From: Candidatus Woesearchaeota archaeon
Lineage (GTDB): Archaea; Nanobdellota; Nanobdellia; Woesearchaeales; WJKL01
Direction of reading: 5' to 3'
NCBI GenBank assembly: GCA_019322435.1
Contig: JAHWIR010000005.1
Coordinates: 199-64,198, forward strand
Length of the DNA: 64,000 bases
This document shows, piece by piece, positions 22,455-48,456 of the stretch (the stretch's first letter is position 1; every line of letters starts with the position of its first letter). The translations under genes were made by a program, and so were the position numbers. The notes under the pieces are model-generated. The model made no database searches. It was given only the letters and a program-made list of their open reading frames with translations, and was not told where the DNA came from.

Positions 22455-24005
22455 ATGGCAAAAGAAATAATGCACTGGGCTGATTCAACAGCAAAGAGGA
22501 TTGTGCAGCAGAGAGGAAAGAAGGCAAAGTATACATTAGCTGCTGGCATAACTCCATCTGGAACAATACATCTTGGTAATTTCAGGGAAATCATCACAGT
22601 TGATCTTATTGATAAGGCTTTGAAGGACTTAGGGCATAAGACCAGATTTATCTATTCTTGGGATGATTATGATGTTTTCAGGAAGGTTCCTAAGAATATG
22701 CCTCAGCAGGATATGCTGAAGGAGAATCTGAGAAGAGCATTGGTGTCTATTCCTGATCCTTTTGGATGCCATGATAATTATGCAATGCATAATGAGAAAG
22801 AGGTTGAGGAAGAGCTGCCTGTTTTGGGAATCAAGCCAGAGTTCATCTATCAGGGTGAGATGAACAGGAAATGCGCTTATGCAGAAGAGATGAAGACAGC
22901 ACTAGAGAATGTTGAGAAGATAAAAGAGATTTTGAATGAGCACAGGAAAGAAGAGCTAGGGGAAGAGTGGCTGCCTGTTTCTGTCTATTGCGAGAAATGC
23001 GGAAAAGAAGCCAATGTTATCCATTATACTGGCGGATATACTTTAGAATATGAATGTGATTGCAAAGAAAAATCTTCTTTTGATTTCAGGAAAAAAGGAT
23101 TTGCAAAGCTGAAATGGAGAGTTGACTGGCCTGCAAGATGGAAATATGAAAAAGTTGATTTTGAATCTGGAGGAAAGGATCATTTTGCAGCTGGCGGAAG
23201 CTTCTGGACAGGGGAGCATATTCTGGAAAAGGTGTTTGAAACAAAAAAGTTTGCTTCAATGAGGTATGAATGGATCTCTCTCAAAGGGCAAGGGCAGTTT
23301 GCAAGCTCTTCAGGAGTTGTGATAACACTGAAAGAGATGGAAGAGGTTTATGAGCCTGTTATTATCAGATGGCTGTTTGCATCAACAAGGCCTGATGCTG
23401 AGTTTGCTATCAGCTTTGATCTGGATGTTTTAACAATATATGAGAATTTTGACAGATGTGAGAGAATCTATTTTAATGAGGAAGAAGTAGAAGAGAAAGA
23501 AAGATTAAAGCAGAAAAGGATATATGAGCTGAGTGCTGTCAATATCCCTAAAAACCTGCCTTATCAGCCAAGTTTCAGGCATCTGACAACTGTATTGCAG
23601 ATTTATGATAAAGACTTGAAAAAAGCAGCTGAGGCTTTTTATGTTAAAAAAGAAGACAAAGAGAAATTAGAGTTAAGATTGAATTGTGCATTGAACTGGC
23701 TGGAGAAATATGCTCCTGATGATTTTAAATTTAGTGTGCAGGAAAAAGTTCCTAAAAATATTAAGATAGATGACAGGCAAAGAAAAGCTTTGAATAAAGT
23801 TGCAGCTCTTTTAGATAAGAAGCTAAGTGATGAAGAATTACATAATAGGTTCTATGAAATCTGCACTAATCTTGGTCTGGAACCCAGAGATTTCTTTAAA
23901 GCAGCTTATTTAGTATTAGTCAACAAGGAGAAAGGTCCGAGGTTAGCTCATTTTATTCTGACTATTGGAAAGGATAAGGTAAAGAAATTGTTTGAAGGGG
24001 TTTAA
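22455..24005 (+). CDS. lysK: lysyl-tRNA synthetase, class I
   Basis: 516 aa with HWADSTAKRI, HIGH-type motif TIHLGNFRE, a Zn-type CEKCGK..CDC and SSSGVV (KMSKS region). Confidence 0.93.
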   Translation: MAKEIMHWADSTAKRIVQQRGKKAKYTLAAGITPSGTIHLGNFREIITVDLIDKALKDLGHKTRFIYSWDDYDVFRKVPKNMPQQDMLKENLRRALVSIPDPFGCHDNYAMHNEKEVEEELPVLGIKPEFIYQGEMNRKCAYAEEMKTALENVEKIKEILNEHRKEELGEEWLPVSVYCEKCGKEANVIHYTGGYTLEYECDCKEKSSFDFRKKGFAKLKWRVDWPARWKYEKVDFESGGKDHFAAGGSFWTGEHILEKVFETKKFASMRYEWISLKGQGQFASSSGVVITLKEMEEVYEPVIIRWLFASTRPDAEFAISFDLDVLTIYENFDRCERIYFNEEEVEEKERLKQKRIYELSAVNIPKNLPYQPSFRHLTTVLQIYDKDLKKAAEAFYVKKEDKEKLELRLNCALNWLEKYAPDDFKFSVQEKVPKNIKIDDRQRKALNKVAALLDKKLSDEELHNRFYEICTNLGLEPRDFFKAAYLVLVNKEKGPRLAHFILTIGKDKVKKLFEGV

Positions 24006-24454
24006 TTCTCCATTCCAGGCAAATCAAAATAGTCATGATCAAATATATAATCTGAGCCTTGCGTTTCTTGCTGGAATTCATATCCTATGTCTTTGATTGA
24101 TGCAACTGCTTCTCTAGCTGAATCATTAACAATTATTTCCAGATCATCTCCTAAACTATAGAATTTGGGTTTTTCTCCGAGAGAAATTTCTGTTGCCCCT
24201 GTTGCTCTATAGACTTTATTAAGGTCAGTCGCTAATATGATGTGATTCAAACCATTTTTCTCATAATCTTTATCTTGAGGATCAAATTTTAGCACTGCTG
24301 AAACAACTTCTCCGTCATTCATAAATCCGAAGATGTTTCTGATATCGAATTTTTTGCCTTTGTAATCTGCTATTAGATAAATACCTAGTTCAGGTTTAAG
24401 GTTAGCATTGAGTATGCAGCTTTTTCTTCCTTCGATTTTTAATATATTTGACAT
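24002..24454 (-). CDS. hypothetical protein
   Basis: 150 aa. Convergent 4-nt overlap with lysK. Has its own promoter module (24476-24494). Confidence 0.55.
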   Translation of the reverse strand: MSNILKIEGRKSCILNANLKPELGIYLIADYKGKKFDIRNIFGFMNDGEVVSAVLKFDPQDKDYEKNGLNHIILATDLNKVYRATGATEISLGEKPKFYSLGDDLEIIVNDSAREAVASIKDIGYEFQQETQGSDYIFDHDYFDLPGMEN

Positions 24455-24475: not shown

Positions 24476-24494
24476 TTTAAAAACCTTCGTGATT
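24476..24494 (-). promoter_or_regulatory. BRE/TATA promoter, CACGAAGGTTTTTAAA variant
   Basis: The minus strand reads aatcacgaaggtttttaaa, 22 nt upstream of the ATG at 24454. Confidence 0.6.
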
Positions 24495-30458: not shown

Positions 30459-32728
<2,270 letters not shown>

Positions 32729-32767: not shown

Positions 32768-32787
32768 TTTAAAAACCTTCGTGAATT
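32768..32787 (-). promoter_or_regulatory. BRE/TATA promoter, CACGAAGGTTTTTAAA variant
   Basis: The minus strand reads aattcacgaaggtttttaaa, 40 nt upstream of the ATG at 32728. Confidence 0.55.
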
Positions 32788-33457: not shown

Positions 33458-33477
33458 TTTAAAAACCTTCGTGAATT
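33458..33477 (-). promoter_or_regulatory. BRE/TATA promoter, CACGAAGGTTTTTAAA variant
   Basis: The minus strand reads aattcacgaaggtttttaaa, 23 nt upstream of the ATG at 33435. Confidence 0.6.
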
Positions 33478-33527: not shown

Positions 33528-34148
33528 ATGGCTAAAGCAAAAAGGAAGACATCAAGGACTGCTGTTAAGAAGACGTGGTTTCAGATTACAGCGCCTGCTA
33601 TGTTCAATAAGCAGACTATTGGGGAGATTCCTCTGGTGGAAGCGTCTAAGGGAATGGGGAGGACTGTTCCAGTCAATCTGATGAATCTTACAGGAGATAT
33701 GAGAAAGCAGAATATCAATGTTATATTTGAGATAAATAATATCAGCGGAAGCAAGCTGTATACAGAGCTTGTCGGGTTTAAGATGGTTGCTTCTTCAATC
33801 AAGAGAATGGTCAGGAGAGGCAAAAGGAAGGTTGATTATTCTTTTACAGCCAAAACAGCTGATGGTTATAAATTAAAGGTTAAGGTCATAATGGTGACAC
33901 TTGGACTGACTTACCTGTCTTCTCTTACTGGGCTGAGGAAGGCATGCGATGAAGAGATGGTCAAAATGCTTAGCAAGATGAAATATGAGAATTTTGTTGA
34001 AGAGCTTGTCAATCATAGAGTGCAGACCAATGTGAAGAAACTATTAAGCAAAGTATATCCTTTAAGGATGTTTGAGGTAAGGGATATGCAAGTTATGAAG
34101 AAAGGCAGTGAAGCGCCTAAGAAAAAGGCTGTTAAGAAAAAAGAATAA
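33528..34148 (+). CDS. rps3ae: 30S ribosomal protein S3Ae (eS1)
   Basis: 206 aa, KKTWFQITAPAMFN... and a basic C-terminus. Confidence 0.9.
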   Translation: MAKAKRKTSRTAVKKTWFQITAPAMFNKQTIGEIPLVEASKGMGRTVPVNLMNLTGDMRKQNINVIFEINNISGSKLYTELVGFKMVASSIKRMVRRGKRKVDYSFTAKTADGYKLKVKVIMVTLGLTYLSSLTGLRKACDEEMVKMLSKMKYENFVEELVNHRVQTNVKKLLSKVYPLRMFEVRDMQVMKKGSEAPKKKAVKKKE

Positions 34149-34150
34149 TT

Positions 34151-34564
34151 CTATTCAAGTTGAATTTCTTCAAAAAGTGTTTCTGCTAAAGAATCAAGGT
34201 TATCTTCTTCGCCAGTTATTATATATGAAGTGACTCCAGCATTTATGCCTGAGTATGTTCCTTTTACAGAACTAAGAATCTCCTCTTTTTTTTCTGAGAC
34301 TTCATCTGGTTTTTGATAGATTCCTAAGAAACAGTAATCTTTTTTATCATATCTGCAGATCCTTATGAAATGACTCTTTAATATATTTGCTACTCCTTTA
34401 ACCCTTTCTTCATAAGTATCTTCGCCTAATTTAAGCATTACTAGTGCTTTTGGTTTTTTATGATGTTGTACTAGTTGGACAATATGAGAGAACTCGTCCT
34501 TGAATACTATATAATCCTCTAATCCAGTCAGTTCATCTGTTAAAACATGTTCGTCTTTTGTCAT
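34151..34564 (-). CDS. degenerate GGDEF-like domain protein
   Basis: Start re-set to MTKDEHVLTDELTGLEDY. ALVMLKLGED and RYDKKDYCFL occupy the positions of the DxD and GGDEF motifs. The track N-terminal extension overlaps the upstream gene. TATA-like ctttataaa lies about 25-30 nt upstream. Confidence 0.55.
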   Translation of the reverse strand: MTKDEHVLTDELTGLEDYIVFKDEFSHIVQLVQHHKKPKALVMLKLGEDTYEERVKGVANILKSHFIRICRYDKKDYCFLGIYQKPDEVSEKKEEILSSVKGTYSGINAGVTSYIITGEEDNLDSLAETLFEEIQLE

Positions 34565-34598
34565 TTTATATATAGTAATTGTTCTGGATTTATAAAGA

Positions 34599-35261
34599 TT
34601 ATTCGAATTTTTGGCTTGCAACCATGTTTCTGCCTTGTTTCTTTGCTTCGTATAATAGTGTGTCTGCTGCTGTAAACAGACCTTCGCTGGACTTATACTT
34701 ATCAGTATGCTGAACAACACCTAGAGAGAGCGTAACCTTTAATTCATGGCCTTTATAATCAAATTTTTGTTTTTCAACTAATTTTCTATATTCTTCAGCT
34801 GCTTTTGCTGCATCTTCTATAATTGTATCAGGCATTATTACTGTAAACTCGTCTCCACCATATCTGCAAAATAAATCCTCTCCTGTAAAATACTCTTTGC
34901 CTAATTCTGTTATCCTAACTAGAATATCATCTCCTATAGGATGGCCGTATGTATCATTAATATGTTTAAAATTATCAATATCAAATGCAATAAGAGAAAC
35001 TGGAACATTATCTTCATCTGATTTTTTAACTTCTTTTTCAAGCTGTTCTTTAAAATAACTGTGGTTATAGGCTTTTGTCAGGCCGTCTTCTATAGCTTTT
35101 GGACCAAGTATAGCTATTTTTTTCTCCTTTTTCTCATTATCTTTTTTTAGAGCAATATAATCCTGCCTTAATTCTGTTAATTTTTGGTATTCCATAGAGT
35201 CAGGACTAAGTGAAGCTGCTATTTCATCATAAAGTTTAACTGTATCTTCAAGATTTTCCAT
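34599..35261 (-). CDS. GGDEF-domain diguanylate cyclase
   Basis: DGLTKAYNHSYF, IAFDIDNFKHINDTYGHPIGDDIL, RYGGDEFTVIM (codons at 34845-34859) and LLYEAKKQGRN. Short coiled-coil-like N-terminus. The RxxD position reads TGED. Confidence 0.85.
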   Translation of the reverse strand: MENLEDTVKLYDEIAASLSPDSMEYQKLTELRQDYIALKKDNEKKEKKIAILGPKAIEDGLTKAYNHSYFKEQLEKEVKKSDEDNVPVSLIAFDIDNFKHINDTYGHPIGDDILVRITELGKEYFTGEDLFCRYGGDEFTVIMPDTIIEDAAKAAEEYRKLVEKQKFDYKGHELKVTLSLGVVQHTDKYKSSEGLFTAADTLLYEAKKQGRNMVASQKFE

Positions 35262-35283
35262 TTTAATATTTTGGATAAATTTG

Positions 35284-35297
35284 CCTTTATAAACCTT
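35284..35297 (-). promoter_or_regulatory. BRE/TATA promoter of the GGDEF gene
   Basis: The minus strand reads aaggtttataaagg, about 25 nt upstream of the ATG at 35261. Confidence 0.6.
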
Positions 35298-35372: not shown

Positions 35373-35990
35373 ATGGTATTGAAAGGGTTTAAGCGGTTGG
35401 CAGTGTCTTTAATGGCATACTTAGCAATACCAAAGTTGGAAGATAATTCTAAAAGTACTGAGTATGATCCATCAGTTCAGAATGATGATGGTATTGGTTT
35501 TGGTTCTATAGAAGAAGGAGAATATGACCCATTGCAGTTAGGGCATGGTTTTTATAAACAGGAGGTGGATAGGCCTGCAGCTGTTGGTCCATTGATTCCT
35601 GGTGTTGATGACTTTGAGATTGTAGAGGAATATAATGGTGAACCAGACATTGATTTTTTTAATTTACCAAGACCAAAAGAAAGAAGCGAAGAAGATGGAG
35701 AGTATCTAGATTGGTTGGAAGGGCTTAATTTTGAATTGAATCCTACAATGTATGATTTAAGCGATGCAATTTATTGTATGCAAGGAGATAATATGCCAAA
35801 AAGAAAACCAATAGATGTTGGAGTTGGAATAAGCTTTAAGGTTGGTATACCAAAACAAGAGTTGCTAGTTCAAAAGTATGCTAATCAATATAGAGAAATG
35901 AGTTTGTCTGAAATATTAGAAGCTGAAAGGGAAAATGCAGCAAAGGCTGAGGCTACTAAGATTGTTCTGAAAGAAAAGGGATTGTTATGA
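35373..35990 (+). CDS. hypothetical protein with N-terminal hydrophobic anchor
   Basis: 205 aa, no recognisable motif. Confidence 0.55.
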   Translation: MVLKGFKRLAVSLMAYLAIPKLEDNSKSTEYDPSVQNDDGIGFGSIEEGEYDPLQLGHGFYKQEVDRPAAVGPLIPGVDDFEIVEEYNGEPDIDFFNLPRPKERSEEDGEYLDWLEGLNFELNPTMYDLSDAIYCMQGDNMPKRKPIDVGVGISFKVGIPKQELLVQKYANQYREMSLSEILEAERENAAKAEATKIVLKEKGLL

Positions 35991-36023
35991 ATGAATGTTT
36001 TAACTTAGATTAAAGGTGTAAAT

Positions 36024-36620
36024 ATGGAAAAACATCAAATAAAAGATATAACACAATATCCAATTGTTGGGACTGACACCGAGATATGGCTTATTAAGCC
36101 TGAAAATCATCAAAGATTAAGATTAGCCCAGTCAAAAAGTGGAATTTTTGACTTATTTATTTCTGAAAAATTAATATACCATGCTTCAGAATCTATTGAA
36201 GAGCTTACAAAACAGATTAAGAAAGGCAGACACAGATATCCTAAATCTTTTGAATATAATTATGTTACTATCTATGATACAATTTCTGGAAAAGATATAA
36301 GAAATGTACATCCAAAAGGTCAGGAACAACTGCCTATAGAAGATAGGTTGGTTGATATTGATTTCTCATTTACAAGAGATGGAAGATCGTTAGGTTATTT
36401 GCTTAATGGAGAGGAGCATTTTTTATTTGACTCAATCCGTGAACCTGTAAAGCAAGATGGAGCATACAGTTTTAGTGGTGATAGGGTTTATTTTGACGGA
36501 AAGAGAGTAGCAAAGATGGATAATGAGATTAAATATTTTGGTGTTGTTGATGCTCGTGAATTACAGAAAATGCTGAAAAGAAAAAATAGGGGTCTTCTTC
36601 ATAGATGGAAGAAGTTATGA
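36024..36620 (+). CDS. hypothetical protein
   Basis: 198 aa, SD aaaggtg. Confidence 0.55.
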   Translation: MEKHQIKDITQYPIVGTDTEIWLIKPENHQRLRLAQSKSGIFDLFISEKLIYHASESIEELTKQIKKGRHRYPKSFEYNYVTIYDTISGKDIRNVHPKGQEQLPIEDRLVDIDFSFTRDGRSLGYLLNGEEHFLFDSIREPVKQDGAYSFSGDRVYFDGKRVAKMDNEIKYFGVVDARELQKMLKRKNRGLLHRWKKL

Positions 36621-36648: not shown

Positions 36649-36912
36649 TCAACGAGCGCATTGATCTCTTGGACAGATATCTACACCAGGATATTCTCTG
36701 CACATCTTTGGTCTTATTGAATATATTTTGCAGTTGTTGTTTTCCAAAAAAAAGCATTTGTTGTCTGGCAATTTAATGCATCTTTGTTTTCTTGCGTTTT
36801 TTTCAGTGAAATTTCTGTATCCTTTCAGAAGAATTCTTAAGTATTCTAATAATGATAATTTTACTCTTAGAGTGCAGCAGTAAGCGCATCTTGTGCAGTT
36901 TGAAGGCATCAT
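36649..36912 (-). CDS. YkgJ-family (UPF0153) Cys-cluster protein
   Basis: CTRCAYCC ... CFFLENNNCKIYSIRPKMCREYP. Confidence 0.75.
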   Translation of the reverse strand: MMPSNCTRCAYCCTLRVKLSLLEYLRILLKGYRNFTEKNARKQRCIKLPDNKCFFLENNNCKIYSIRPKMCREYPGVDICPRDQCAR

Positions 36913-36945
36913 AATGAGAAATTAGAAGTTGGGGTATTTAAATAT

Positions 36946-37782
36946 TTATAATGTAACTAGGTCTTTTAAGAATAACCTTAACAAATCTCTTGTGGTTACA
37001 ATTCCAACTGGTTTTTTGCCTTCTACAACAACTATTGAAGAGATATCAAATCTTTCCATCTTGTCCAAAACCCTTGATAAAGTGTCATCAGGGGAGGCTG
37101 TTATCATCACAGAGGTTGCGATGTTGTTCACTGAGTAGGCATCGTAGTGTGTCTTGTCTTTGAATGCTCTTATTGTTCTTGGGCCGAATTGTGTTAAAGT
37201 GCCTCTGCCTCTTCTGTCTGTCTTGGACTGCTGCCTTAGAATAAATTTGTCAAGGAAGTCTTTTAAGCAGGCAATGTTGATTATCTCTCCTTTTTCATCT
37301 ACAATTGGGATTCTTGAGATGTTTTTCTCTTTCATTATGTATATTGCTTTTCCGATTCTCTCGTTTTCATGGACTGTTATTGGCGTCAAGGACATTATCT
37401 TGGTTATTTTGTCATTTGCAAATTTTGTTTTATTCAGCTCCTGAATCAGGTCTTTAGAAGCCACAATGCCAATAACCATGCTGTTCTGGATTACAGGAAG
37501 TATTCTTGTTTCTGCTGTGAACATTAATCTTACTGTCTCTTCTATTGATTCTTTTCCAGTTAGAGGCGGGACTGGTTTTACTATTTTAGCTATTTTCATT
37601 TCAGTTGGATCTAGTTTTGTCCTTACAAGAAGATGCGTGTCAGCAACACCTAAGAATTTTTTTTTGTCAAACACCAAAGCTGCTTTTGCATTATGAAGAT
37701 CTAACTGCCCAATCAGCTTAGAAACAGAATCTTTTTTATCTACAGCAACATACCCCTTCTTTATTAGATGTTTTTCAACCAT
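36946..37782 (-). CDS. CBS-domain protein (four CBS repeats)
   Basis: Repeated hydrophobic-GIV(T/A)..D(L/F) modules (VGIVTTRDLL, GIVASKDLI, IACLKDF, LGVADTHLL). Confidence 0.8.
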   Translation of the reverse strand: MVEKHLIKKGYVAVDKKDSVSKLIGQLDLHNAKAALVFDKKKFLGVADTHLLVRTKLDPTEMKIAKIVKPVPPLTGKESIEETVRLMFTAETRILPVIQNSMVIGIVASKDLIQELNKTKFANDKITKIMSLTPITVHENERIGKAIYIMKEKNISRIPIVDEKGEIINIACLKDFLDKFILRQQSKTDRRGRGTLTQFGPRTIRAFKDKTHYDAYSVNNIATSVMITASPDDTLSRVLDKMERFDISSIVVVEGKKPVGIVTTRDLLRLFLKDLVTL

Positions 37783-38367: not shown

Positions 38368-38387
38368 TTTAAAAACCTTCGGGTATT
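38368..38387 (-). promoter_or_regulatory. BRE/TATA promoter, variant
   Basis: The minus strand reads aatacccgaaggtttttaaa, 24 nt upstream of the ATG at 38344. Confidence 0.6.
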
Positions 38388-38461: not shown

Positions 38462-38827
38462 ATGAAAGTAATGGTGTTTGGAACATTTGATATCTTGCAT
38501 AAAGGCCATTTGAGTTATTTTAAGCAGGCAAGGAAATATGGAGATTTTCTTATTGCAGTTATTGCAAGGGATAAAACAGTGAAAAAACTTAGAGGAAGGC
38601 TGCCTAGAAATAATGAAAAGAAAAGAGTTAAAGAAGTAAATAAATATGCTGATAAAGCTGTTTTAGGTTATGTTTATGACAAGATGAAGGTTGTCAAGAA
38701 GTACAAGCCTGATGTAATTTGCTTGGGATATGACCAGGATTCAAATGGATTGAAGAAGTTTAAGAGGATGAAAGCGTATAAAGCGCATAAGTATAAAACT
38801 TCTAAACTAAAAACCAGTTCCATATAA
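38462..38827 (+). CDS. cytidylyltransferase-family nucleotidyltransferase (RibL/FAD-synthase-like)
   Basis: VFGTFDILHKGHLSYFKQA, GDFLIAVIARD and PDVICLGYDQ. Confidence 0.7.
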   Translation: MKVMVFGTFDILHKGHLSYFKQARKYGDFLIAVIARDKTVKKLRGRLPRNNEKKRVKEVNKYADKAVLGYVYDKMKVVKKYKPDVICLGYDQDSNGLKKFKRMKAYKAHKYKTSKLKTSSI

Positions 38828-39364
38828 GACAAAACCTCCAGGGAGGTTCATCAACCTGTCTTGTTTTTTTACAAAAGAAGTCAATTCTTTTAATGCTGCC
38901 CTTTCATTGGACTTAAGGCACTTGTTCTGCATATCTGCAATTTTTGCATCTTTGATAATTTGGGTTATGCCTAAAGTCAAGAAGTTATAAGCGTCAGCTA
39001 TATTGCTGTGCTCTAAAAGGTCAAAATAAGCGCTTACCAAACCATTTTTCAATTCTTCAAAGTCATTATATTTGTCATAGCCCATAGATGCGTAAGCTCT
39101 TGCATCATTTAATACAGATAATTCTTCAAGCATTAAAACCAAGCTATTCTTTTGAGAATCATTTAAGTTTTTTCCAGGATTAACACGAATTAAGTCTCCT
39201 GCATCTTCTAATGTAACTCCCTGTGATTCTAAAGCAGAAACAACTGTTTCATGATGGGTATTAATCCTGCCAATATCATATCTTAGGCAGTACATCAACC
39301 CGCCGCCTTGAGCAGGATGCGTTTCTCCAAGATTAAATTCATGCCATAATGATTTTTCTTCCAT
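38807..39364 (-). CDS. hypothetical protein
   Basis: 185 aa with its own promoter module. Convergent 21-nt overlap with the upstream gene. Confidence 0.55.
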   Translation of the reverse strand: MEEKSLWHEFNLGETHPAQGGGLMYCLRYDIGRINTHHETVVSALESQGVTLEDAGDLIRVNPGKNLNDSQKNSLVLMLEELSVLNDARAYASMGYDKYNDFEELKNGLVSAYFDLLEHSNIADAYNFLTLGITQIIKDAKIADMQNKCLKSNERAALKELTSFVKKQDRLMNLPGGFVLYGTGF

Positions 39365-39386: not shown

Positions 39387-39406
39387 TTTAAAAAGCTTCG
39401 TGAATT
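39387..39406 (-). promoter_or_regulatory. BRE/TATA promoter, variant
   Basis: The minus strand reads aattcacgaagctttttaaa, 23 nt upstream of the ATG at 39364 and directly after the stop of the AsnB-like gene. Confidence 0.6.
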
Positions 39407-40460: not shown

Positions 40461-41369
40461 ATGGCTGTTGAAACAATCACAAAATGTCCGGAATGTGGAG
40501 ATGGAAAGTTTTTTGCTAATAAGAAGAAGGGAGAAGTTATCTGCAAAAGCTGCGGATTTGTTATAGACGATTCTATGGTTGATTTTGGAAGAGACAGAGC
40601 GTTTGATACTGAAGATTTTATAAAGAAATCCAGAACAGGAGCTCCATTTGATCCAAGAGTTGCAAATGGTTTGATGACTGAAGTTGGAAGTAATGCTGAT
40701 TTGAAGAATCTAAGCAAGAAACAAAGACAATTAATGAATAGAATTAGGCAAAAGAACAGATGGACAAGCTCTGCATTAGAGCATAATTTGAATACTAACT
40801 TGGCTAATCTGAAATTAGTTGCTTCTCAATTAAAAGTTCCTGATACTATTGAGAAAGAAGCAGCTAGAATCTACAGAGAATGCGCTGAAAAAGGCGTTAC
40901 AAGAGCCAGAGCTAATGACAGCATTATAGCAGCTGTTGTATATCTTGCATCTAAGCTTCATGGAATGCCAAAGACACTGACTGAGGTTGCTCAGGCTTCT
41001 AAACTGGATAAATTTGACATTGCAAGAACTTACAAGATGGTAATAAGGAGATTAAATATCAAAGTAATGCAGTCTAATCCAATTGATTTCATAGCAAGAT
41101 TTGCTTCTGAACTAAATCTAGGAGCGCAAGTACAGACAAAAGCAGTAAAATTACTTGAAAGAGTACAGAAGGATGGAATGGATTCTGGAAAATCCCCAAC
41201 ATCTTTAGCTGCAACAACTTTGTACATTGCTGCATTGACTAACAAGACAAAAGTAACTCAGAAAGCAATAGCTGAAACAGCTGGAATTACTGAAACAACT
41301 CTTAGACAGAGAACTAAAGAGATGCTTAAGAAGTTAGGAATTAAGAAGTCTGATATCAAGAAGAAATAG
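40461..41369 (+). CDS. tfb: transcription initiation factor IIB
   Basis: Zn ribbon CPECG..CKSCG, B-reader/linker and two cyclin-like repeats. Confidence 0.95.
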   Translation: MAVETITKCPECGDGKFFANKKKGEVICKSCGFVIDDSMVDFGRDRAFDTEDFIKKSRTGAPFDPRVANGLMTEVGSNADLKNLSKKQRQLMNRIRQKNRWTSSALEHNLNTNLANLKLVASQLKVPDTIEKEAARIYRECAEKGVTRARANDSIIAAVVYLASKLHGMPKTLTEVAQASKLDKFDIARTYKMVIRRLNIKVMQSNPIDFIARFASELNLGAQVQTKAVKLLERVQKDGMDSGKSPTSLAATTLYIAALTNKTKVTQKAIAETAGITETTLRQRTKEMLKKLGIKKSDIKKK

Positions 41370-42910: not shown

Positions 42911-43186
42911 ATGGCAGAATACAAAACAATAAATTTAGACAATATAGCTATTGAGCGCAGAGCTTATGCAACCTGCTCTAAAGAGGTTGTAAAAGGATTT
43001 TATATTATGCCTATTAAATTTTTAGATGATAATACAATAGTAGTTGCTGTAAGAGACAATCTAAAAGAAGAGAAATTAGAAACTTTAGTTAAAGAGCTAA
43101 GCTTTCATCTAAAAAAAGATGTTTGCCCTGTTCTTGCCACTAAAAAACAGATTAAAAAAGCACATAAAAGATATTATAAGAAATAA
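42911..43186 (+). CDS. stand-alone T2SSE_N (GspE/PilB N-terminal)-like domain protein
   Basis: INLDNIAIERRAYATCSKEVVKGFYIMPIKFLDDNTIVVAVRDNLKEEKLETLVKELSFHLKKDVCPVLATKKQIKKAHKRYY follows the T2SSE_N pattern by eye. Confidence 0.55.
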   Translation: MAEYKTINLDNIAIERRAYATCSKEVVKGFYIMPIKFLDDNTIVVAVRDNLKEEKLETLVKELSFHLKKDVCPVLATKKQIKKAHKRYYKK

Positions 43187-43235
43187 TTATTTCTTCACAA
43201 GCTTTTTAAATAACCCAGGAATTCTTTTTTCTAAT

Positions 43236-44282
43236 ATGAGTAAATACGGCGGCAGATTTGAAATTAGCAGAAAAGAACATAAGAAAAACCTAAGGAAGGT
43301 TTACAAAGAAGGGAAAAGCAAGGTTATACAAGCTATTCCAAGCAGACCTTCTAAGAAAGAAGATAAAGAAGCTCCTATTGAGGTTAAGCCTTTTACAGGG
43401 ATTGGAAATGTTAATCCTATAAACATTGCAGATTACAGCAATTTATCAGAATTTATATTAAAAAGATTAAATCCTTCTGAAGATCTTAAAAAGCCTGTTG
43501 TTGATATAATGGTTAGCATGTTTTTGAATATTTCTGATGTTTATGAAAAAGGCAAATATCCTCCAAAGAGAGTAAGAGATTATGCGAAAGAGCAATTTAG
43601 GGTTTTTCAAGATTCTTTATCAGTATTGGAAGTAAGTTCTTATCCAGCAAACCTGATATTAAGAAAGGGAAGGATTGGAGATTTTTCTAATAAGGAAAAA
43701 TATAGAATACGTGATAATAAAGAGCTTGTTAAAAGTGATTTATTTAAGGGAGAGTCATCTTATCATATAGTTTACTTAGGAGGTCCTTCTAATATGAAGT
43801 GCTATGAAGCAGCTGATGTTGCAGAGGGGGTTGTAAGAGACAAATACTCTAAAATATATAATGAACAGGCAAAAGTAATTGAATCTTATATTGAGAAGGA
43901 AGAAATTGTTGAATTAGAGAAAAAAATTAGGGGATTTGTAGAAGGGGCTGAAGATAGTGAACTTTTTAAAAAAGTAAGAGAGGTTTTAGAAACTAGAACT
44001 GATTTGACAGAGCTGCAAATAGAATTTCTTAATGAAACACTTAAAATTGAAGGACCATATGAAAGAGCAATGCGAGAATCAAAAGAGATAGAGCCGAGAA
44101 TCCCTGTTAATACACAGGATATTCTAAATTTGATAGGCAAGAGTGTATTGCCTGGCGGTGTTTTAATTACAGATGCGTCTGATATGAAAGATTTTCCTGA
44201 AGGATTTGGTATTATTGATTGTTATGATCAGTTTTCTTGGTATCAAAAAGCTATTTCTTCAGAAGTTGGATCTCCTCAATAA
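43236..44282 (+). CDS. hypothetical protein
   Basis: Start re-set to MSKYGGRFEI. TATA gctttttaaataa lies about 25 nt upstream. The track start at 43119 overlaps the preceding gene. Confidence 0.6.
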   Translation: MSKYGGRFEISRKEHKKNLRKVYKEGKSKVIQAIPSRPSKKEDKEAPIEVKPFTGIGNVNPINIADYSNLSEFILKRLNPSEDLKKPVVDIMVSMFLNISDVYEKGKYPPKRVRDYAKEQFRVFQDSLSVLEVSSYPANLILRKGRIGDFSNKEKYRIRDNKELVKSDLFKGESSYHIVYLGGPSNMKCYEAADVAEGVVRDKYSKIYNEQAKVIESYIEKEEIVELEKKIRGFVEGAEDSELFKKVREVLETRTDLTELQIEFLNETLKIEGPYERAMRESKEIEPRIPVNTQDILNLIGKSVLPGGVLITDASDMKDFPEGFGIIDCYDQFSWYQKAISSEVGSPQ

Positions 44283-45731: not shown

Positions 45732-46825
45732 AAGAGTTTACCAAGTAAACTCTTTTTCTTTATTGTTTTATTAAATTGTTTTAACAAATCTTTTTGTTTT
45801 GCTGTTAATTTTTTAGGTGTTTTTAGAATTACTTTTACCAGCTGGTCTCCTGAGCCTGAGCCATGCAGATGTGGAATACCTTTGCTTCTCATCTTGAAGA
45901 TTGTATGAGATTGAGTTCCTGCTGGAATCTTTAGTTCTGCTTTGCCTTTCAGGGTTGGAACTTCTATCTTAGCTCCTAATGCTGCCTGCGTGAATGTGAC
46001 TGGAATCTCTAGATAGATATCATCTCCGTGCCTTTCAAAGAGATTGTGCTCTTTGACATGGAGTATAATGTATAAATCTCCTGCTGGAGCTCCCCTCTCT
46101 CCTGCTTCTCCTGCTCCTGTTATCCTCAAGTTTGTTCCTGTCTCTGAGCCTGCTGGTATCTTTACTTCTAATTCAGATGTTTTCTTTGTATTTCCAGAGC
46201 CATGGCATGTTTTGCAGGGATTTTTTATTGATGTCCCTTCTCCCCTGCATCTTGGGCAGGATGATTGTGTTGAGAACATTCCAAATGGTGTTCTTGCTGT
46301 TCTTTTTATGAATCCAGAGCCATCGCATTGAGGGCATTCAATTATATCTTCTCTTGTTTTTGCTCCTGTTCCTTTGCATTCAGGGCATTTCACTGTATGG
46401 GGTATTTTTATTGTTTTTTCTGTTCCTTCTGCTGCTGCTTCTAAAGTAATTTCCATATCATATCTCAAGTCAGAGCCTCTTCTTGGACCTCTTCTTCTTC
46501 TGCCAAATATATTTCCTCCAAAGAAAGATTCAAAGATAGAATCAAAATCAAAGCCGCCCATGATGTCTTCAAAATTAAATCCGCCTGCTCCTCCGAATGG
46601 TGATTCAGCTGTTCCAAACTGGTCATATTGAGAACGTTTTTCATCATCAGCTAAGATTGCTGCTGCTTCGTTTATCTCTTTAAATTTATCTTCGTATTCT
46701 GATTTTTTTTCTTCTGGAGCCCTGTCTGGATGAAACTTCATAGCTAGTTTTTTGTAAGCTTTCTTTATTTCTTCTTTTGTTGCGTTCTTATCAACGCCTA
46801 GGATTTTATAGTAGTCTTTTGTCAT
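45728..46825 (-). CDS. dnaJ: chaperone DnaJ
   Basis: J domain with HPD (KFHPDR), a G/F region and four CxxCxG motifs. Confidence 0.95.
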   Translation of the reverse strand: MTKDYYKILGVDKNATKEEIKKAYKKLAMKFHPDRAPEEKKSEYEDKFKEINEAAAILADDEKRSQYDQFGTAESPFGGAGGFNFEDIMGGFDFDSIFESFFGGNIFGRRRRGPRRGSDLRYDMEITLEAAAEGTEKTIKIPHTVKCPECKGTGAKTREDIIECPQCDGSGFIKRTARTPFGMFSTQSSCPRCRGEGTSIKNPCKTCHGSGNTKKTSELEVKIPAGSETGTNLRITGAGEAGERGAPAGDLYIILHVKEHNLFERHGDDIYLEIPVTFTQAALGAKIEVPTLKGKAELKIPAGTQSHTIFKMRSKGIPHLHGSGSGDQLVKVILKTPKKLTAKQKDLLKQFNKTIKKKSLLGKLF

Positions 46826-47346
46826 TTTATATCCTCAGGTTTAATATCCAAGTTCTTAAAGATTTCTTTTTCCAGTTGTTTTGTTGCTTCAATTGAATCT
46901 AAGATAAGCTGCCTTACTTCTGGAAAGTAATCTGGCCACCTGTGCATCCTTTCATCTAAAGAGACTATTCTTACTTCATGAGAATTAACTCTTTTGTCTG
47001 CATAGAAGACTAATTTTTCTTCCCATGTCTCTAAAGGATCTTCAATTATTGCAGATAATAGATGTTTTCTTACAATTGTAATTAATTTTTGATCAAAATT
47101 TAATTTTTCTAAGATTTTTTCTCCTGCTTTAGCATGCTCTGCTTTATCTTTTTCTTCTACAGTTCCAACATCGTGCAATAATCCGGCAATTTCAACTAAA
47201 TTTACATCTATTTTCTCTCCTTTTTCAATTAGTTTTTTTGCTAAGAATACAGCAATCTCTGATACTTTTTCGCAATGCTTTATTTTAATATCATCAAGTC
47301 CATGCTTTTTTAATAACTCTATTGATTCTTCTCTTGTTGGTATCAT
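46822..47346 (-). CDS. HD-domain phosphohydrolase (tandem copy 2)
   Basis: IKHCEKVSEIAVFLA...GLLHDVG. ATGA-type 4-nt overlaps on both sides. Confidence 0.75.
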   Translation of the reverse strand: MIPTREESIELLKKHGLDDIKIKHCEKVSEIAVFLAKKLIEKGEKIDVNLVEIAGLLHDVGTVEEKDKAEHAKAGEKILEKLNFDQKLITIVRKHLLSAIIEDPLETWEEKLVFYADKRVNSHEVRIVSLDERMHRWPDYFPEVRQLILDSIEATKQLEKEIFKNLDIKPEDIK

Positions 47347-47852
47347 TTTATGTCTTCTGGCTGGATGTCTAATTTGTCAAATATTTCTTTTTCTAATCTA
47401 TATGCAAAATCTTCATGCTCTTGTTTAAAGGTTGTGTATTTTTTTCTTATAAATTCATATCTTTGCTTTATGCTGACTACTTTGTTGAACTGCACTCTTT
47501 TGTCTGCATAGCTAACAATCTTTGATTCCCATGCTAAATTATCATCTGGGATTCCGTGATTCTCTGCAATCTCTCCTACTTTTGAATACTGTTTTTCTGA
47601 GAGCCATTTTTTGCTGAGCTTTCCATGGTTTTTGATATCATTCAATGTTGGGATTTTATCTAAATCATGCAGTAAAGAGCCTGCATTTACTAAATCTAAG
47701 TCAAGTTTGATTCCTGCCTGCTTAAGTGCTATTCCTATTTCCATCGCAACCCTGTTTACTGTCCTGGAATGCTCTCTTACATTTTCAGGAAGCTTGAATT
47801 CATCCATTATCTTTATGCATTCTTCTGTTGTTGGTATCTCAGTCATGTTCAA
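47343..47852 (-). CDS. HD-domain phosphohydrolase (tandem copy 1)
   Basis: REHSRTVNRVAMEIG...SLLHDLDK. Both copies end ...(K/F)(N/D)LDI(K/Q)PEDIK. Confidence 0.75.
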   Translation of the reverse strand: MNMTEIPTTEECIKIMDEFKLPENVREHSRTVNRVAMEIGIALKQAGIKLDLDLVNAGSLLHDLDKIPTLNDIKNHGKLSKKWLSEKQYSKVGEIAENHGIPDDNLAWESKIVSYADKRVQFNKVVSIKQRYEFIRKKYTTFKQEHEDFAYRLEKEIFDKLDIQPEDIK

Positions 47853-48456
47853 TTATCTCTATCAGCTTGTTTAGATTAGGAATCATGAAATCAGGATGGT
47901 ATTTCTTTATGTACATCCTCTTGAAAACACCTGTCGGAACTATCACTGCTTTGATCCCTGCTTTGTGTGCCTCTATAACATCATTTATATGGTCTCCGAC
48001 ATAGACTGCTTCTGAAGATTTTAATGATTTCATTGCTTTTTTTATTATGTCATGCTTTTTTTCATCTTTTTTCATGTCTTCGCTTGCAACCAAGAGATTG
48101 TATCTTATCTTGAAATGCCTGCATGCCTTGATTACAGATTTTCTGTGGTTGTTTGTGAGGATTATTATCTTGATTCCTTTCAGTTTTGGTAAAAGTGTTT
48201 TTCCATAGAATTTCATCTTTGGGATGTTGGCTGCATAGACTTCTTCATAGACATTGATCAGCTTCTGCTTTGGGATTCCTGATTTTTTATGCAGTGAATT
48301 TATCATATCTGAGAATTTTGAACCGACATATTTCTGGAATCCTCTTTTAGAAGTTTTTTGATTGGTTAATTTCCATAAAGCTCTGTAAGTTGCTTTTGCT
48401 CCTGCTCTTGAATTTACTAAAGTTAGGTCAAAATCGAAAAAAATTGTTTTAATCAT
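47839..48456 (-). CDS. HAD-superfamily hydrolase
   Basis: IFFDFDLTLVNS (DxDxT) and VGDHINDVIEAHKAG. Confidence 0.8.
   Translation of the reverse strand: MIKTIFFDFDLTLVNSRAGAKATYRALWKLTNQKTSKRGFQKYVGSKFSDMINSLHKKSGIPKQKLINVYEEVYAANIPKMKFYGKTLLPKLKGIKIIILTNNHRKSVIKACRHFKIRYNLLVASEDMKKDEKKHDIIKKAMKSLKSSEAVYVGDHINDVIEAHKAGIKAVIVPTGVFKRMYIKKYHPDFMIPNLNKLIEIIEHD

What the first reader, a model, noticed from the sequence alone, without database searches (positions are those of the whole stretch)
34151..35297. Intact GGDEF diguanylate cyclase plus an adjacent degenerate GGDEF-like gene, both behind archaeal-type promoters
Seen: ORF 34599..35261 (-) carries every hallmark of a competent GGDEF domain: DGLTKAYNHSYF, IAFDIDNFKHINDTYGHPIGDDIL, RYGGDEFTVIM (codons 34845-34859) and LLYEAKKQGRN. 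It follows a roughly 55-aa coiled-coil-like N-terminus. The allosteric RxxD position reads TGED. A second ORF (34151..34564) starts 35 nt downstream behind its own TATA-like box. It aligns by eye to the same fold with the motifs replaced (DELTGLEDY; ALVMLKLGED for IAFDIDNF; RYDKKDYCFL for RYGGDEFTVI). The cyclase has a BRE/TATA (35284-35297) about 25 nt from its ATG, like the housekeeping genes here, and sits next to rps3ae. Known: GGDEF domains synthesise c-di-GMP. This signalling system is regarded as essentially bacterial. Degenerate GGDEF domains often act as receptors or scaffolds. Inference: a minimal cyclic-dinucleotide writer/reader pair native to an archaeon. A stand-alone receiver (32345..32728) and a T2SSE_N-like protein (42911..43186) lie in the same window, but no link between them is shown.
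Basis: partly seen in the sequence, partly recalled or inferred. Interest (0 to 1): 0.8.

Follow-up and report, generated by a model that had tools for sequence, protein, structure and literature searches.

The report
Archaeal diguanylate cyclase with dead partner
A clade of tiny DPANN archaea (Woesearchaeota) carries, at one fixed chromosomal spot, an apparently working copy of the bacterial enzyme that makes the signal molecule c-di-GMP, together with a shrunken, catalytically dead copy of the same fold. This matters because c-di-GMP signalling has never been shown in archaea.

Summary
ORF 34599..35261(-) is a full GGDEF domain (Pfam E 5.7e-43, TIGR00254 E 3.7e-49). All catalytic and guanine-binding residues are present behind a helical stalk. 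The best structural match is Caulobacter DgcB (coiled coil plus GGDEF, TM 0.83). ORF 34151..34564(-) has no Pfam hit above threshold. It is nevertheless a truncated GGDEF fold: hhalign gives 96% probability (E 5e-9), and an AF2 model (pLDDT 91) has only GGDEF domains as its top 37 PDB matches. It lacks the metal/phosphate loop, the GGDEF hairpin and the RxxD I-site.

The host is a Woesearchaeon (GyrB 83% identical to a Woesearchaeota MAG; TFB, S3Ae, class-I LysRS and an intron-bearing tRNA are present). The same cyclase-partner-rps3ae-gyrB arrangement recurs in at least eight other independent contigs, so chimeric assembly is excluded. Both genes sit behind TATA boxes at -32, the position typical of genes in this window.

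The "native archaeal writer" reading is supported. The "reader" role of the partner is not, because its I-site is deleted. The REC-like and MshEN-like genes are not linked to the pair. GenBank already auto-annotates some orthologues as GGDEF or diguanylate cyclase. I found no paper describing the pair, its synteny or the partner family.

The parts
34599..35261 (-). Diguanylate cyclase gene (220 aa): two N-terminal helices plus a GGDEF domain
   Evidence: Pfam PF00990 E 5.7e-43. TIGR00254 E 3.7e-49. PleD is the best PDB sequence hit, E 3e-29. AF2 pLDDT 93. Foldseek best full-length match 6ttr_B, DgcB coiled coil plus GGDEF, TMq 0.83, rmsd 1.4.
35091..35261 (-). N-terminal stalk (residues 1-57): helix 4-16, a loop, then a long helix 23-57 running straight into the GGDEF domain. 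Presumed dimerising coiled coil.
   Evidence: AF2 secondary structure. Superposes on the coiled coil of DgcB and on the WspR stalk. Hydrophobic residues at 28/31/35/38 and 49/52/56 (read by eye) would fit a heptad pattern. Dimerisation itself is inferred.
34626..35093 (-). GGDEF catalytic domain (residues 57-212). PleD equivalents: N102 = N335 and D111 = D344 (guanine); D94 = D327 and D137 = E370 (metal); K99 = K332, K207 = K442, R211 = R446.
   Evidence: Alignment to PleD 1w25, ungapped across the catalytic motifs up to residue 169, with PleD residue numbers taken from prior knowledge. These are invariant or near-invariant columns in alignments A4, A6 and A7.
34845..34859 (-). GGDEF signature codons (G135-F139)
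   Evidence: Regex on the six-frame translation. Sequence read.
34878..34889 (-). Former allosteric I-site, reads TGED (residues 125-128) in place of RxxD. The secondary I-site Arg (PleD R390) is Glu here.
   Evidence: Eleven of 13 cluster representatives have R[ED][TS]D or RHED plus AAERLR (AAEHFR in one); only this copy and P0127 (L161) have lost them.
35286..35297 (-). BRE/TATA promoter of the cyclase gene (AAGG-TTTATAAA). The TATA starts 32 nt upstream of the ATG, implying a leaderless or near-leaderless mRNA.
   Evidence: Twelve-fold positional enrichment of such boxes at -40..-24 in this window. The same box lies at about -33 in the closest orthologous locus, L161.
34151..34564 (-). Partner gene (137 aa): stand-alone, truncated, catalytically dead GGDEF-fold protein. 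Member of a small family with no Pfam hit above threshold.
   Evidence: hhalign against GGDEF: probability 95.95%, E 5e-9, 95 columns. AF2 pLDDT 90.8, pTM 0.84. The top 37 Foldseek PDB hits are all GGDEF domains; 3qyy_A E 7e-6, TMq 0.72. Pfam GGDEF reaches only E 0.06. Eight true relatives among 1.84 billion representatives. Every relative whose upstream DNA is visible follows a GGDEF gene, except L168.
34589..34596 (-). TATA box of the partner gene (TTTATAAA, starting 32 nt upstream of its ATG), immediately after the cyclase stop codon
   Evidence: TATA-like boxes at about -32 to -35 in L161, L002, L162, L164 and L167, with the flanking word AATAATCTTT shared by the window, L002 and L167 (positions read by eye).
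33528..34148 (+). rps3ae, the convergent housekeeping neighbour that anchors the cassette in every locus (context, not a functional part)
   Evidence: Pfam Ribosomal_S3Ae E 5e-45. Adjacent to the partner gene in L002, L161, L162/163, L164-166 (the truncated flanking ORF matches S3Ae in L164), L169, L170 and L171.
36649..37782 (-). Co-oriented upstream neighbours: a CxxCxxCC protein (36649..36912) and a CBS-domain protein (36946..37782). Conserved context; functional link unproven.
   Evidence: Pfam. CBS lies upstream of the cassette in L002, L161, L169 and L170; CxxC in L002, L169 and L170.

Best explanation
This is a two-gene cassette of bacterial origin that has become a resident, vertically inherited part of the chromosome in one clade of Woesearchaeota (DPANN archaea).

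Gene 1 encodes a sensor-less diguanylate cyclase. A long N-terminal helix presumably zips two subunits into a parallel coiled coil. That would bring two GTP-loaded GGDEF domains together to make c-di-GMP. Its guanine-reading residues (Asn102, Asp111) predict c-di-GMP as the product, not cGAMP. Most family members keep the RxxD feedback site; this copy and its nearest relative have lost it.

Gene 2, transcribed from its own conserved archaeal promoter, encodes a 137-aa GGDEF-fold protein. It has lost the metal/phosphate loop, the GGDEF hairpin and the I-site, so it cannot make c-di-GMP and is unlikely to bind it in the classical way. Because it is always paired with the cyclase, it most likely works through protein-protein contact with it. 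It could act as a regulatory subunit (a pseudo-substrate-like GGDEF domain that modulates productive dimer formation) or as the adaptor that passes the signal on.

Shown here: fold, residues, promoters, synteny and archaeal host. Inferred: dimerisation, product, and the role of the partner.
For: Cyclase identity and residues:
- Pfam and TIGRFAM matches.
- Alignment to PleD with N335, D344, D327, E370, K332, K442 and R446 equivalents all present.
- These residues are invariant across 13 archaeal cluster representatives.
- AF2 pLDDT 93, with helix 23-57 continuous with the domain. The best full-length PDB match is DgcB coiled coil plus GGDEF, TMq 0.83 / TMt 0.93.

Partner fold:
- hhalign probability 96%, E 5e-9.
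- AF2 pLDDT 90.8, with the top 37 PDB matches all GGDEF domains.
- A 10-residue deletion removes DxDxFK..ND..GH and a 3-residue deletion removes the I-site.

Archaeal host:
- GyrB is 83/76/74% identical to Woesearchaeota MAGs.
- TFB, S3Ae, class-I LysRS, diphthamide synthase, PTH2 and SRP54 are present, as is an intron-bearing tRNA.

Residency:
- The same GGDEF-partner-rps3ae(-gyrB) arrangement occurs in L002, L161, L162/163, L164-166, L169, L170 and L171. L167 shows the GGDEF-partner pair before its short contig ends. These come from different samples and assemblers.
- GC and codon usage are within the window's range.
- TATA boxes lie at -32.
- A profile search gives 13 cluster representatives scoring 280-381 bits, then a gap to 231 bits or less for bacteria. 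Two are named Candidatus Woesearchaeota by NCBI.

Bacterial origin:
- The nearest non-archaeal hits are bacterial FHA-GGDEF and GAF-GGDEF proteins at 42-45% identity over the domain only.
- Only 1 of 26 informative Woesearchaeota/Nanoarchaeota species representatives with the gyrB-rps3ae linkage carries the cassette.
Against: - No enzyme activity or c-di-GMP measurement exists for any archaeon (PMC10249747, PMC8646023).
- No phosphodiesterase (EAL, HD-GYP) and no known receptor (PilZ, MshEN motif) was found in the 64 kb. The pathway is therefore incomplete as far as can be seen. The rest of the genome was not available.
- The cassette evolves much faster than its neighbours in this sub-lineage. 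Against L161, the cyclase is 40% identical and the partner 35%, compared with 62-77% for GyrB, PhoU, S3Ae and CBS. L161 has unusual substitutions (DGSTGIL, NDGISH). This could mean relaxed constraint.
- Monophyly of the archaeal cyclases has only 26% NJ bootstrap support.
- Physical interaction between cyclase and partner is inferred from gene pairing alone.
- The partner has its own promoter, so the two genes need not be co-expressed.
Confidence: 0.7

Rival explanations
1. Writer/reader pair. The partner is a c-di-GMP receptor (a new, I-site-less binding mode) that carries the cyclase's signal to a target. Together the two genes would be a self-contained archaeal c-di-GMP pathway.
For: - Degenerate GGDEF domains are a known receptor class (established knowledge: PelD, PopA, CdgA).
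- The partner is the only gene strictly co-inherited with the cyclase. All loci with visible upstream DNA show this except L168.
- A small DPANN genome keeping a cyclase implies that some receptor exists.
- The partner family has invariant K56, F66, C70 and R71 and near-invariant Y72, which could form a ligand site.
- Its best structural match is a c-di-GMP-bound GGDEF domain, 3qyy.
Against: - The RxxD I-site, the feature that defines such receptors, is deleted.
- The nucleotide/metal loop is deleted too.
- The 3qyy match reflects fold only (17% identity).
- No binding data exist.
Confidence: 0.2
2. Bacterial contamination or chimeric assembly. The GGDEF genes would belong to a bacterium and would have been mis-joined to an archaeal contig.
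For: - GGDEF is overwhelmingly bacterial. Earlier authors raised exactly this doubt for archaeal contigs (PMC5847659, PMC10086821).
- The first database search found only bacterial relatives, at 45% identity or less.
Against: - The same junctions (partner next to rps3ae; cyclase next to CxxC/CBS) recur in at least eight other contigs from different samples, up to 478 kb long.
- Archaeal genes flank the cassette on both sides within 0.5-5 kb.
- Both genes have archaeal TATA boxes at the genome-typical position.
- GC and codon usage are within the window's range.
Confidence: 0.01
3. Anti-virus defence module. The cyclase would make a nucleotide alarm signal on infection and the partner would be its effector or sensor, by analogy with CBASS, Pycsar or Cas10-palm systems.
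For: - The GGDEF domain is homologous to the Cas10 palm (weak Pfam PF22335 hit, E 3e-6).
- The cassette is small, patchily distributed, fast-evolving and horizontally acquired.
Against: - Neither protein nor its neighbours hit any PADLOC model.
- The partner has no effector-type domain (nuclease, TIR, pore or protease); it is only a dead GGDEF fold.
- The cassette sits at one fixed housekeeping position in all lineages, not in a variable island.
- Feedback I-sites, as kept in 11 of 13 members, are typical of housekeeping signalling cyclases.
Confidence: 0.04
4. Decaying or repurposed relic. The cyclase would no longer make c-di-GMP in this lineage (the I-site is lost and evolution is fast), and both proteins would serve a structural or unrelated role, or none.
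For: - Window versus L161: cyclase 40% and partner 35% identity, against 62-77% for neighbours.
- The I-site is lost in exactly these two lineages.
- No turnover or receptor genes are in view.
Against: - Every catalytic, metal-binding and guanine-binding residue is retained in all 13 cluster representatives, despite divergence as deep as S3Ae at 39-44% identity.
- The reading frames are intact and the promoters conserved.
- Losing feedback inhibition does not impair catalysis.
Confidence: 0.08

Closest known systems
Caulobacter crescentus DgcB (coiled coil plus GGDEF; PDB 6ttr) and the WspR/PleD class of GGDEF diguanylate cyclases
   Same: - Same catalytic domain with all active-site residues (41% identity to the PleD domain in structural alignment).
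- Same arrangement of a long helix running into the GGDEF domain (TMq 0.83, TMt 0.93, rmsd 1.4 to 6ttr_B).
- Most orthologues keep the RxxD product-inhibition site.
   Different: - The host is an archaeon, and transcription is from BRE/TATA promoters.
- There is no receiver or other sensor domain at all.
- This copy has lost the I-site.
- It is always paired with a separately encoded dead GGDEF protein.
Degenerate GGDEF c-di-GMP receptors and scaffolds (PelD, PopA, CdgA, and the GGDEF domains of LapD, FimX and CsrD)
   Same: The partner has a GGDEF fold without the catalytic signature. As in those proteins, a non-enzymatic role is implied.
   Different: - Those receptors bind c-di-GMP through a retained RxxD I-site, or are fused to EAL, TM or REC domains.
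- The partner here is a stand-alone 126-145 aa mini-domain. Its I-site loop and its P-loop/metal loop are both deleted, and it lacks the last beta-strand.
- It scores below Pfam threshold (E 0.06).
SiaD-SiaC of Pseudomonas aeruginosa (PDB 7e6g): a stalk-GGDEF cyclase controlled by a small, separately encoded protein
   Same: A stalk-plus-GGDEF cyclase with no sensor domain of its own, accompanied by a small partner protein. 7e6g is among the structural matches. This serves as a working analogy for regulation by a partner.
   Different: SiaC is not a GGDEF-fold protein, and it acts within a phosphorylation switch (SiaA/SiaB) that has no counterpart here. The analogy rests on my knowledge of that system and was not tested.
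Previously noted archaeal GGDEF proteins: Methanocella arvoryzae CAJ37382 and REC-inactive-GGDEF in Candidatus Micrarchaeum (Galperin et al. 2018, PMC5847659)
   Same: GGDEF domains in archaeal sequence data, including a DPANN lineage.
   Different: Those were isolated cases, and their authors said they might be contamination. Here the catalytic motif is intact, and the gene is syntenic in at least nine independent contigs and paired with a new partner family.

Membership tests
GGDEF diguanylate cyclase (PF00990 / TIGR00254), ORF 34599..35261 | Significant match to the family profile over the whole domain, above the curated cut-off | tested here: met
   Pfam 146.9 bits against 23.8, profile 2-160/161. 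TIGR00254 166.7 bits against 37.4.
GGDEF diguanylate cyclase (PF00990 / TIGR00254), ORF 34599..35261 | GG[DE]EF active-site hairpin preceded by R-Y/F | tested here: met
   RYGGDEF at residues 133-139. Invariant in 13 archaeal cluster representatives.
GGDEF diguanylate cyclase (PF00990 / TIGR00254), ORF 34599..35261 | Metal-binding and phosphate/transition-state residues (PleD D327, E370, K332, K442, R446) | tested here: met
   D94, D137, K99, K207 and R211 by alignment to 1w25.
GGDEF diguanylate cyclase (PF00990 / TIGR00254), ORF 34599..35261 | Guanine-specifying Asn335 and Asp344. A Ser at position 344 would indicate a Hypr cGAMP synthase. | tested here: met
   N102 and D111 (INDTYGHPIGDD). 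Both are invariant in A6 and A7. It is therefore not a Hypr variant.
GGDEF diguanylate cyclase (PF00990 / TIGR00254), ORF 34599..35261 | A device that dimerises two GGDEF domains | tested here: inconclusive
   A 35-residue helix (23-57) leads into the domain and superposes on the DgcB coiled coil. Oligomeric state cannot be predicted with the single-chain tool.
GGDEF diguanylate cyclase (PF00990 / TIGR00254), ORF 34599..35261 | RxxD allosteric I-site (typical of the family, not obligatory) | tested here: not met
   TGED in this copy. RxxD is kept in 11 of 13 cluster representatives.
GGDEF diguanylate cyclase (PF00990 / TIGR00254), ORF 34599..35261 | Converts 2 GTP into c-di-GMP | not testable with these tools
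   Needs an enzyme assay.
Degenerate-GGDEF c-di-GMP receptor (PelD/PopA type), ORF 34151..34564 | GGDEF fold | tested here: met
   hhalign probability 95.95%, E 5e-9. Foldseek top 37 hits are all GGDEF domains, TMq 0.62-0.75.
Degenerate-GGDEF c-di-GMP receptor (PelD/PopA type), ORF 34151..34564 | Retained RxxD I-site five residues before the degenerate signature | tested here: not met
   FIRI---CRYDK aligns to FTGEDLFCRYGG. There is a 3-residue deletion and no RxxD in any of the 10 family members.
Degenerate-GGDEF c-di-GMP receptor (PelD/PopA type), ORF 34151..34564 | Binds c-di-GMP | not testable with these tools
   Needs a binding assay.
MshEN c-di-GMP receptor, ORF 42911..43186 | Match to PF05157 | tested here: met
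   E 1.7e-7, 31.5 bits against 23.1.
MshEN c-di-GMP receptor, ORF 42911..43186 | The 24-residue motif RLGxx[LVI][LVI]xxG[LVI][LVI]xxxxLxxxLxxQ that contacts c-di-GMP | tested here: not met
   No match in any frame of the window. The gene is absent from orthologous cassette loci.
Cyclic-nucleotide anti-phage defence systems (PADLOC models) | Match of the cyclase or partner to a defence-system protein model, with an effector domain nearby | tested here: not met
   No PADLOC hit at E <= 0.01 for 8 proteins. The partner has no effector domain.

The most novel reading that the evidence does not exclude
A clade of Woesearchaeota runs a genuine, vertically inherited c-di-GMP pathway, which would be the first in Archaea. 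In this pathway the mini-GGDEF partner would be a new class of c-di-GMP effector or cyclase regulator working without the I-site. Because these DPANN cells are thought to live attached to other microbes, the signal might control attachment, or might even act on the bacterial or archaeal host.
Probability: 0.2. Interest if true: 0.85.

Novelty: new variant of a known kind. Interest (0 to 1): 0.62.

Why it matters
Reviews state that c-di-GMP has never been detected in archaea and that diguanylate cyclases are almost exclusively bacterial (PMC10249747). In 2018 only one archaeal GGDEF domain was accepted, and others were suspected contamination (PMC5847659). In 2022 the presence of GGDEF proteins on archaeal contigs was still described as needing confirmation (PMC10086821).

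The synteny found here supplies that confirmation for one DPANN clade. A catalytically intact cyclase has been kept at the same housekeeping locus, under archaeal promoters, across lineages whose S3Ae proteins are only about 40% identical. This turns the question 'do any archaea use c-di-GMP?' into a testable one, with a defined 220-aa enzyme and a defined 137-aa candidate partner.

It also adds a previously unrecognised family: a stand-alone GGDEF fold shortened to about 135 aa that no Pfam model detects. Studying it could show how dead cyclase domains regulate live ones.

Tried and rejected
- The look-up of encoding contigs on the window's own cyclase returned nothing on record.
- A genome-contig scan with S3Ae found no relative. 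A repeat with GyrB worked.
- A metagenome scan with the two-sequence partner alignment found nothing. The scan with the cyclase alignment returned only bacterial GGDEF loci at 30-44% identity, none with a partner homologue.
- The word-indexed search with the partner alone found only itself. The exhaustive phmmer search was needed to find the family. One of its hits, P0122, is a spurious repeat protein and was discarded.
It was redone with P-id members only.
- A profile of the partner family against PDB sequences gave only insignificant hits (best E 0.099; the diguanylate cyclase 4urs_A, E 0.72, among them). Pfam scans of the family members gave GGDEF at E 0.013 at best. The fold assignment therefore rests on hhalign and Foldseek.
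- Hypr (cGAMP) GGDEF was rejected because Asp111 occupies the selectivity position.
- A defence-system reading was rejected.
- HD-GYP was rejected for the two small HD proteins at 46822..47852: there is no GYP motif and only generic HD hits.
- A link to the REC-like gene (Pfam E 7.7e-5, below cut-off) and to the MshEN-like gene was rejected for lack of co-occurrence and of the binding motif.
- The NJ phylogeny recovered archaeal monophyly but with only 26% bootstrap support, so single origin rests on synteny and not on the tree.
- The partner profile matches a mixed GGDEF profile (E 5e-9) no worse than the cognate archaeal cyclase profile (E 1.2e-6). This gives no evidence for or against origin by local tandem duplication.
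Full report

Yes. ORF 34599..35261(-) encodes 220 aa carrying DGLTKAYNHSYF, IAFDIDNFKHINDTYGHPIGDD, RYGGDEF (codons 34859..34845) and YEAKKQGRN. It matches Pfam GGDEF at E 5.7e-43 over profile positions 2-160 of 161. It matches TIGR00254 at E 3.7e-49. ORF 34151..34564(-) encodes 137 aa and begins 34 nt after the cyclase stop codon. rps3ae (33528..34148, +) is convergent with it.

**2. What organism is this?**

The window is archaeal throughout.
- It encodes TFB (40461..41369), S3Ae, class-I LysRS (22455..24005), diphthamide synthase, PTH2 and SRP54.
- It carries a 114-nt intron-bearing tRNA that Rfam finds and ARAGORN misses.
- GyrB (30459..32348) is 83%, 76% and 74% identical to GyrB of three Candidatus Woesearchaeota MAGs. 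The next tens of hits are also Woesearchaeota or Nanoarchaeota.
- GC content is 31-39% along the window, with no discontinuity at the cassette.
- The GC, GC3 and codon usage of the two genes lie within the spread of the other genes.

**3. Is the cassette native or an assembly artefact?**

It is native.

The first word-indexed search found only bacterial GGDEF proteins, at 45% identity or less and over the domain only. The partner looked like an orphan.

However, the GyrB-anchored locus L002 (Woesearchaeota MAG Yap200.bin9.104) has gyrB, rps3ae, a 134-aa homologue of the partner, a 264-aa GGDEF protein, a CxxCxxCC protein and a CBS protein, in the same order and orientation as the window.

An exhaustive phmmer search of 1.84 billion representatives with the partner found eight true relatives. 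Their contigs show the following.
- In L161, L162/163 and L164-166 a GGDEF gene lies immediately upstream of the partner and rps3ae immediately downstream.
- L167 is a short contig. It shows the GGDEF-partner pair and then ends.
- L161 is a 59-kb contig that is collinear with the window from RimK to DnaJ.
- L168 is the one exception. It has no GGDEF gene upstream.

A profile built from the archaeal cyclases then retrieved 13 cluster representatives scoring 280-381 bits. After that there is a gap to 231 bits or less for bacterial proteins. Two of the 13 are named Candidatus Woesearchaeota by NCBI.

Three further loci repeat the arrangement: L169 (on a 478-kb contig), L170 and L171.

Different samples and assemblers therefore give the same junctions. 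This excludes chimerism.

The cassette is rare. The gyrB-rps3ae linkage is present in 30 of the 80 GyrB loci. Only 1 of the 26 informative loci has the cassette. L003, a fairly close relative, goes straight from rps3ae to the CxxC gene.

**4. The promoters**

In this window, an octamer TT[TA]A[TA]A[TA]A begins 24-40 nt upstream of the start codon in 21 of 74 genes, against 2.3% of random positions. There is a sharp peak at -29 to -33. Genes without such a box often have a GGAGG/GGTG-like word just before the start.
- The cyclase has AAGG-TTTATAAA starting at -32 (35293..35286).
- The partner has TTTATAAA at -32 (34596..34589).
- The partner's TATA box recurs at about -32 to -35 in all five orthologous loci examined (positions read by eye from the printed sequence). 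The flanking word AATAATCTTT is shared by the window, L002 and L167.
- The cyclase's box is at about -33 in L161. In L002 and L162 it lies at about -50, with an AGGTG or TGTGA word before the ATG.

Both genes are therefore read by the archaeal transcription machinery, and the partner appears to have its own promoter.

**5. The cyclase**

Alignment to PleD (1w25) is ungapped across the catalytic motifs, up to residue 169. The PleD residue numbers below come from my knowledge of the PleD literature.

| Role | Window residue | PleD residue |
|---|---|---|
| Guanine binding | N102 | N335 |
| Guanine binding | D111 | D344 |
| Metal binding | D94 | D327 |
| Metal binding | D137 | E370 |
| Phosphate / transition state | K99 | K332 |
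| Phosphate / transition state | K207 | K442 |
| Phosphate / transition state | R211 | R446 |

Asp at the 344 position argues for c-di-GMP and against a Hypr cGAMP synthase.

The I-site R359xxD362 reads TGED, and the secondary Arg390 is Glu. Among the 13 cluster representatives, 11 have R[ED][TS]D or RHED followed by AAERLR (AAEHFR in one). Only the window copy and its nearest relative, P0127 (L161), have lost both. The loss is therefore secondary.

The AF2 model (pLDDT 93) has a helix at 4-16, a loop, and a 35-residue helix at 23-57 running into the domain. The best full-length PDB match is the coiled coil plus GGDEF construct of Caulobacter DgcB (6ttr_B; TMq 0.83, TMt 0.93, rmsd 1.4). WspR and SiaD are also matched through the stalk. 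There is no sensor domain.

I infer a stalk-mediated homodimer that is constitutively competent. It would be limited by product inhibition in most lineages. In this lineage, control would come from expression or from the partner.

**6. The partner**

Pfam sees only a sub-threshold GGDEF match (E 0.06, residues 8-46). Three further lines of evidence give the fold.
- The ten-member family profile aligns to a GGDEF profile with 95.95% probability and E 5e-9 over 95 columns.
- AF2 with a nine-sequence alignment gives pLDDT 90.8 and pTM 0.84.
- The 37 best Foldseek matches in the PDB are all GGDEF domains (3qyy_A E 7e-6, TMq 0.72; also PleD, DgcZ, DgcR and others).

The alignment shows what is missing.
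- A 10-residue deletion removes DxDxFK..ND..GH, the metal, phosphate and guanine contacts.
- GGDEF is replaced by [DE]-K-x-D-Y.
- A 3-residue deletion removes the I-site loop.
- The C-terminal GRN strand is absent.

What is conserved is hDELTGL at the start, together with invariant K56, F66, C70 and R71 and near-invariant Y72.

The protein cannot be a cyclase. It also fails the defining feature of I-site receptors. I therefore favour a protein-protein role with its cognate cyclase, as regulator or adaptor. An unconventional ligand site remains possible.

**7. Other c-di-GMP components**

Pfam scans of 68 ORFs of the window, plus motif scans of all six frames, found no EAL, HD-GYP or PilZ domain and no MshEN binding motif.
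- The MshEN-like ORF (42911..43186; PF05157 E 1.7e-7) lacks the RLGxx..Q motif.
- The REC-like ORF (32345..32728) scores below Pfam's cut-off.
- Both of these, along with p205, p198 and p209, are absent from the orthologous cassette loci.
- Two small tandem HD proteins (46822..47852) are generic HD hydrolases.
- PADLOC gives nothing.
- The only conserved neighbours besides rps3ae are a co-oriented CBS-domain protein and a CxxCxxCC protein upstream.

**8. Evolution**

The nearest non-archaeal relatives are bacterial FHA-GGDEF and GAF-GGDEF proteins. The NJ tree recovers archaeal monophyly, but with only 26% bootstrap support. The L002-type subgroup has 99%. Single acquisition from bacteria is therefore argued mainly from the shared insertion site and the shared partner.

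Between the window and L161, the cyclase (40% identity) and the partner (35%) have diverged far more than GyrB (77%), PhoU (74%), S3Ae (65%) and CBS (62%). Even so, every catalytic residue is kept.

**9. Comparison with the literature**

- A 2023 review states that c-di-GMP has not been detected in any archaeon and that diguanylate cyclases are almost exclusively bacterial (PMC10249747).
- The 2018 census accepted one archaeal GGDEF domain (Methanocella arvoryzae). It questioned whether the bacterial-type response regulators found on archaeal contigs, including a REC-inactive-GGDEF protein in Micrarchaeum, were genuine archaeal proteins (PMC5847659).
- A 2022 essay says that the presence of GGDEF proteins on archaeal contigs needs to be confirmed (PMC10086821).
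- One groundwater study counted more diguanylate cyclase genes in sediment-attached ultra-small MAGs, without separating archaea from bacteria (PMC9938205).
- Four full-text searches returned no paper describing a Woesearchaeal cyclase. The exact phrase 'archaeal diguanylate cyclase' returned nothing.
- GenBank does already carry automatic 'GGDEF domain-containing protein' and 'diguanylate cyclase' names for two orthologues. The bare existence of such ORFs is therefore public. The conserved cassette, the archaeal promoters and the partner family are what is new here.

**10. Verdict**

The cassette is a new variant of a known kind: a GGDEF cyclase of ordinary bacterial design, resident in an unexpected domain of life, with a new mini-GGDEF companion. 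Interest is moderately high. The finding does not show that archaea use c-di-GMP, but it provides the cleanest genomic case and a directly testable pair of small proteins.

Noticed in passing
window 24476-24492, 32768-32784, 33458-33474, 38368-38384, 39387-39403, 56096-56112 (all - strand): A 17-nt word, TCACGAAGGTTTTTAAA, occurs six times with up to 2 mismatches, against 0.02 expected. It looks like an extended BRE plus TATA. Its TATA part lies roughly 20-45 nt upstream of the starts of five genes: 24002..24454, the REC-like gene, p209, the TPR gene and 38807..39364. It could mark a co-regulated set or simply the strongest promoter consensus.
   Followed up: partly
window 19907-20020 (+): A tRNA gene of 114 nt, presumably intron-containing, is found by Rfam (54.1 bits) but missed by ARAGORN.
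   Followed up: no
window 36649-37782 (-); L002 10080-11411; L161 6363-7190; L169 7452-8582; L170 2-664: A CBS-domain protein, usually with a small CxxCxxCC protein, lies co-oriented just upstream of the cyclase cassette in every locus where that side is visible. CBS modules bind nucleotides, so this is a candidate functional neighbour. The evidence is only conserved position.
   Followed up: partly
window 35373-36620 (+): Two ORFs of 205 and 198 aa have no family match. They are inserted between the cassette and the CxxC gene in this window only, and no orthologous locus has them. Their promoter is divergent from, and nearly palindromic with, the cyclase promoter.
   Followed up: partly
window 34151-35261 compared with L161 7317-8429: The cassette evolves much faster than its neighbours in this sub-lineage. 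The cyclase is 40% identical and the partner 35%, against 62-77% for GyrB, PhoU, S3Ae and CBS. This coincides with loss of the RxxD feedback site in exactly these two lineages.
   Followed up: partly
window 46822-47852 (-): Two tandem paralogous small HD-domain proteins (174 and 169 aa) share a C-terminal EKEIF.[KN]LDI.PEDIK tail. They are not HD-GYP.
   Followed up: partly
window 42911-43186 (+) and 43119-44282 (+): A stand-alone 91-aa protein matches the MshEN/T2SSE_N domain (E 1.7e-7) but lacks the c-di-GMP-binding motif. It overlaps the start of a 387-aa ORF with no family. A stand-alone domain of this bacterial secretion-ATPase type in an archaeon seems unusual to me.
   Followed up: partly
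window 61028-62293 (+), 5503-7344 (+), 45728-50587 (-): The window also encodes a full-length serpin (Pfam E 1e-119), a eukaryote-type Ser/Thr protein kinase of 613 aa, and a DnaK-DnaJ gene group. These would fit a DPANN genome that has acquired many foreign genes.
   Followed up: no
L171 2630-6055: GyrB of this related Woesearchaeon is 1141 aa and carries an intein with a LAGLIDADG domain.
   Followed up: no
L168 358-693: One member of the partner family (P0118, 111 aa, lacking the DELTGL start) is not preceded by a GGDEF gene on its 1-kb contig. It may be a decoupled or truncated copy.
   Followed up: no
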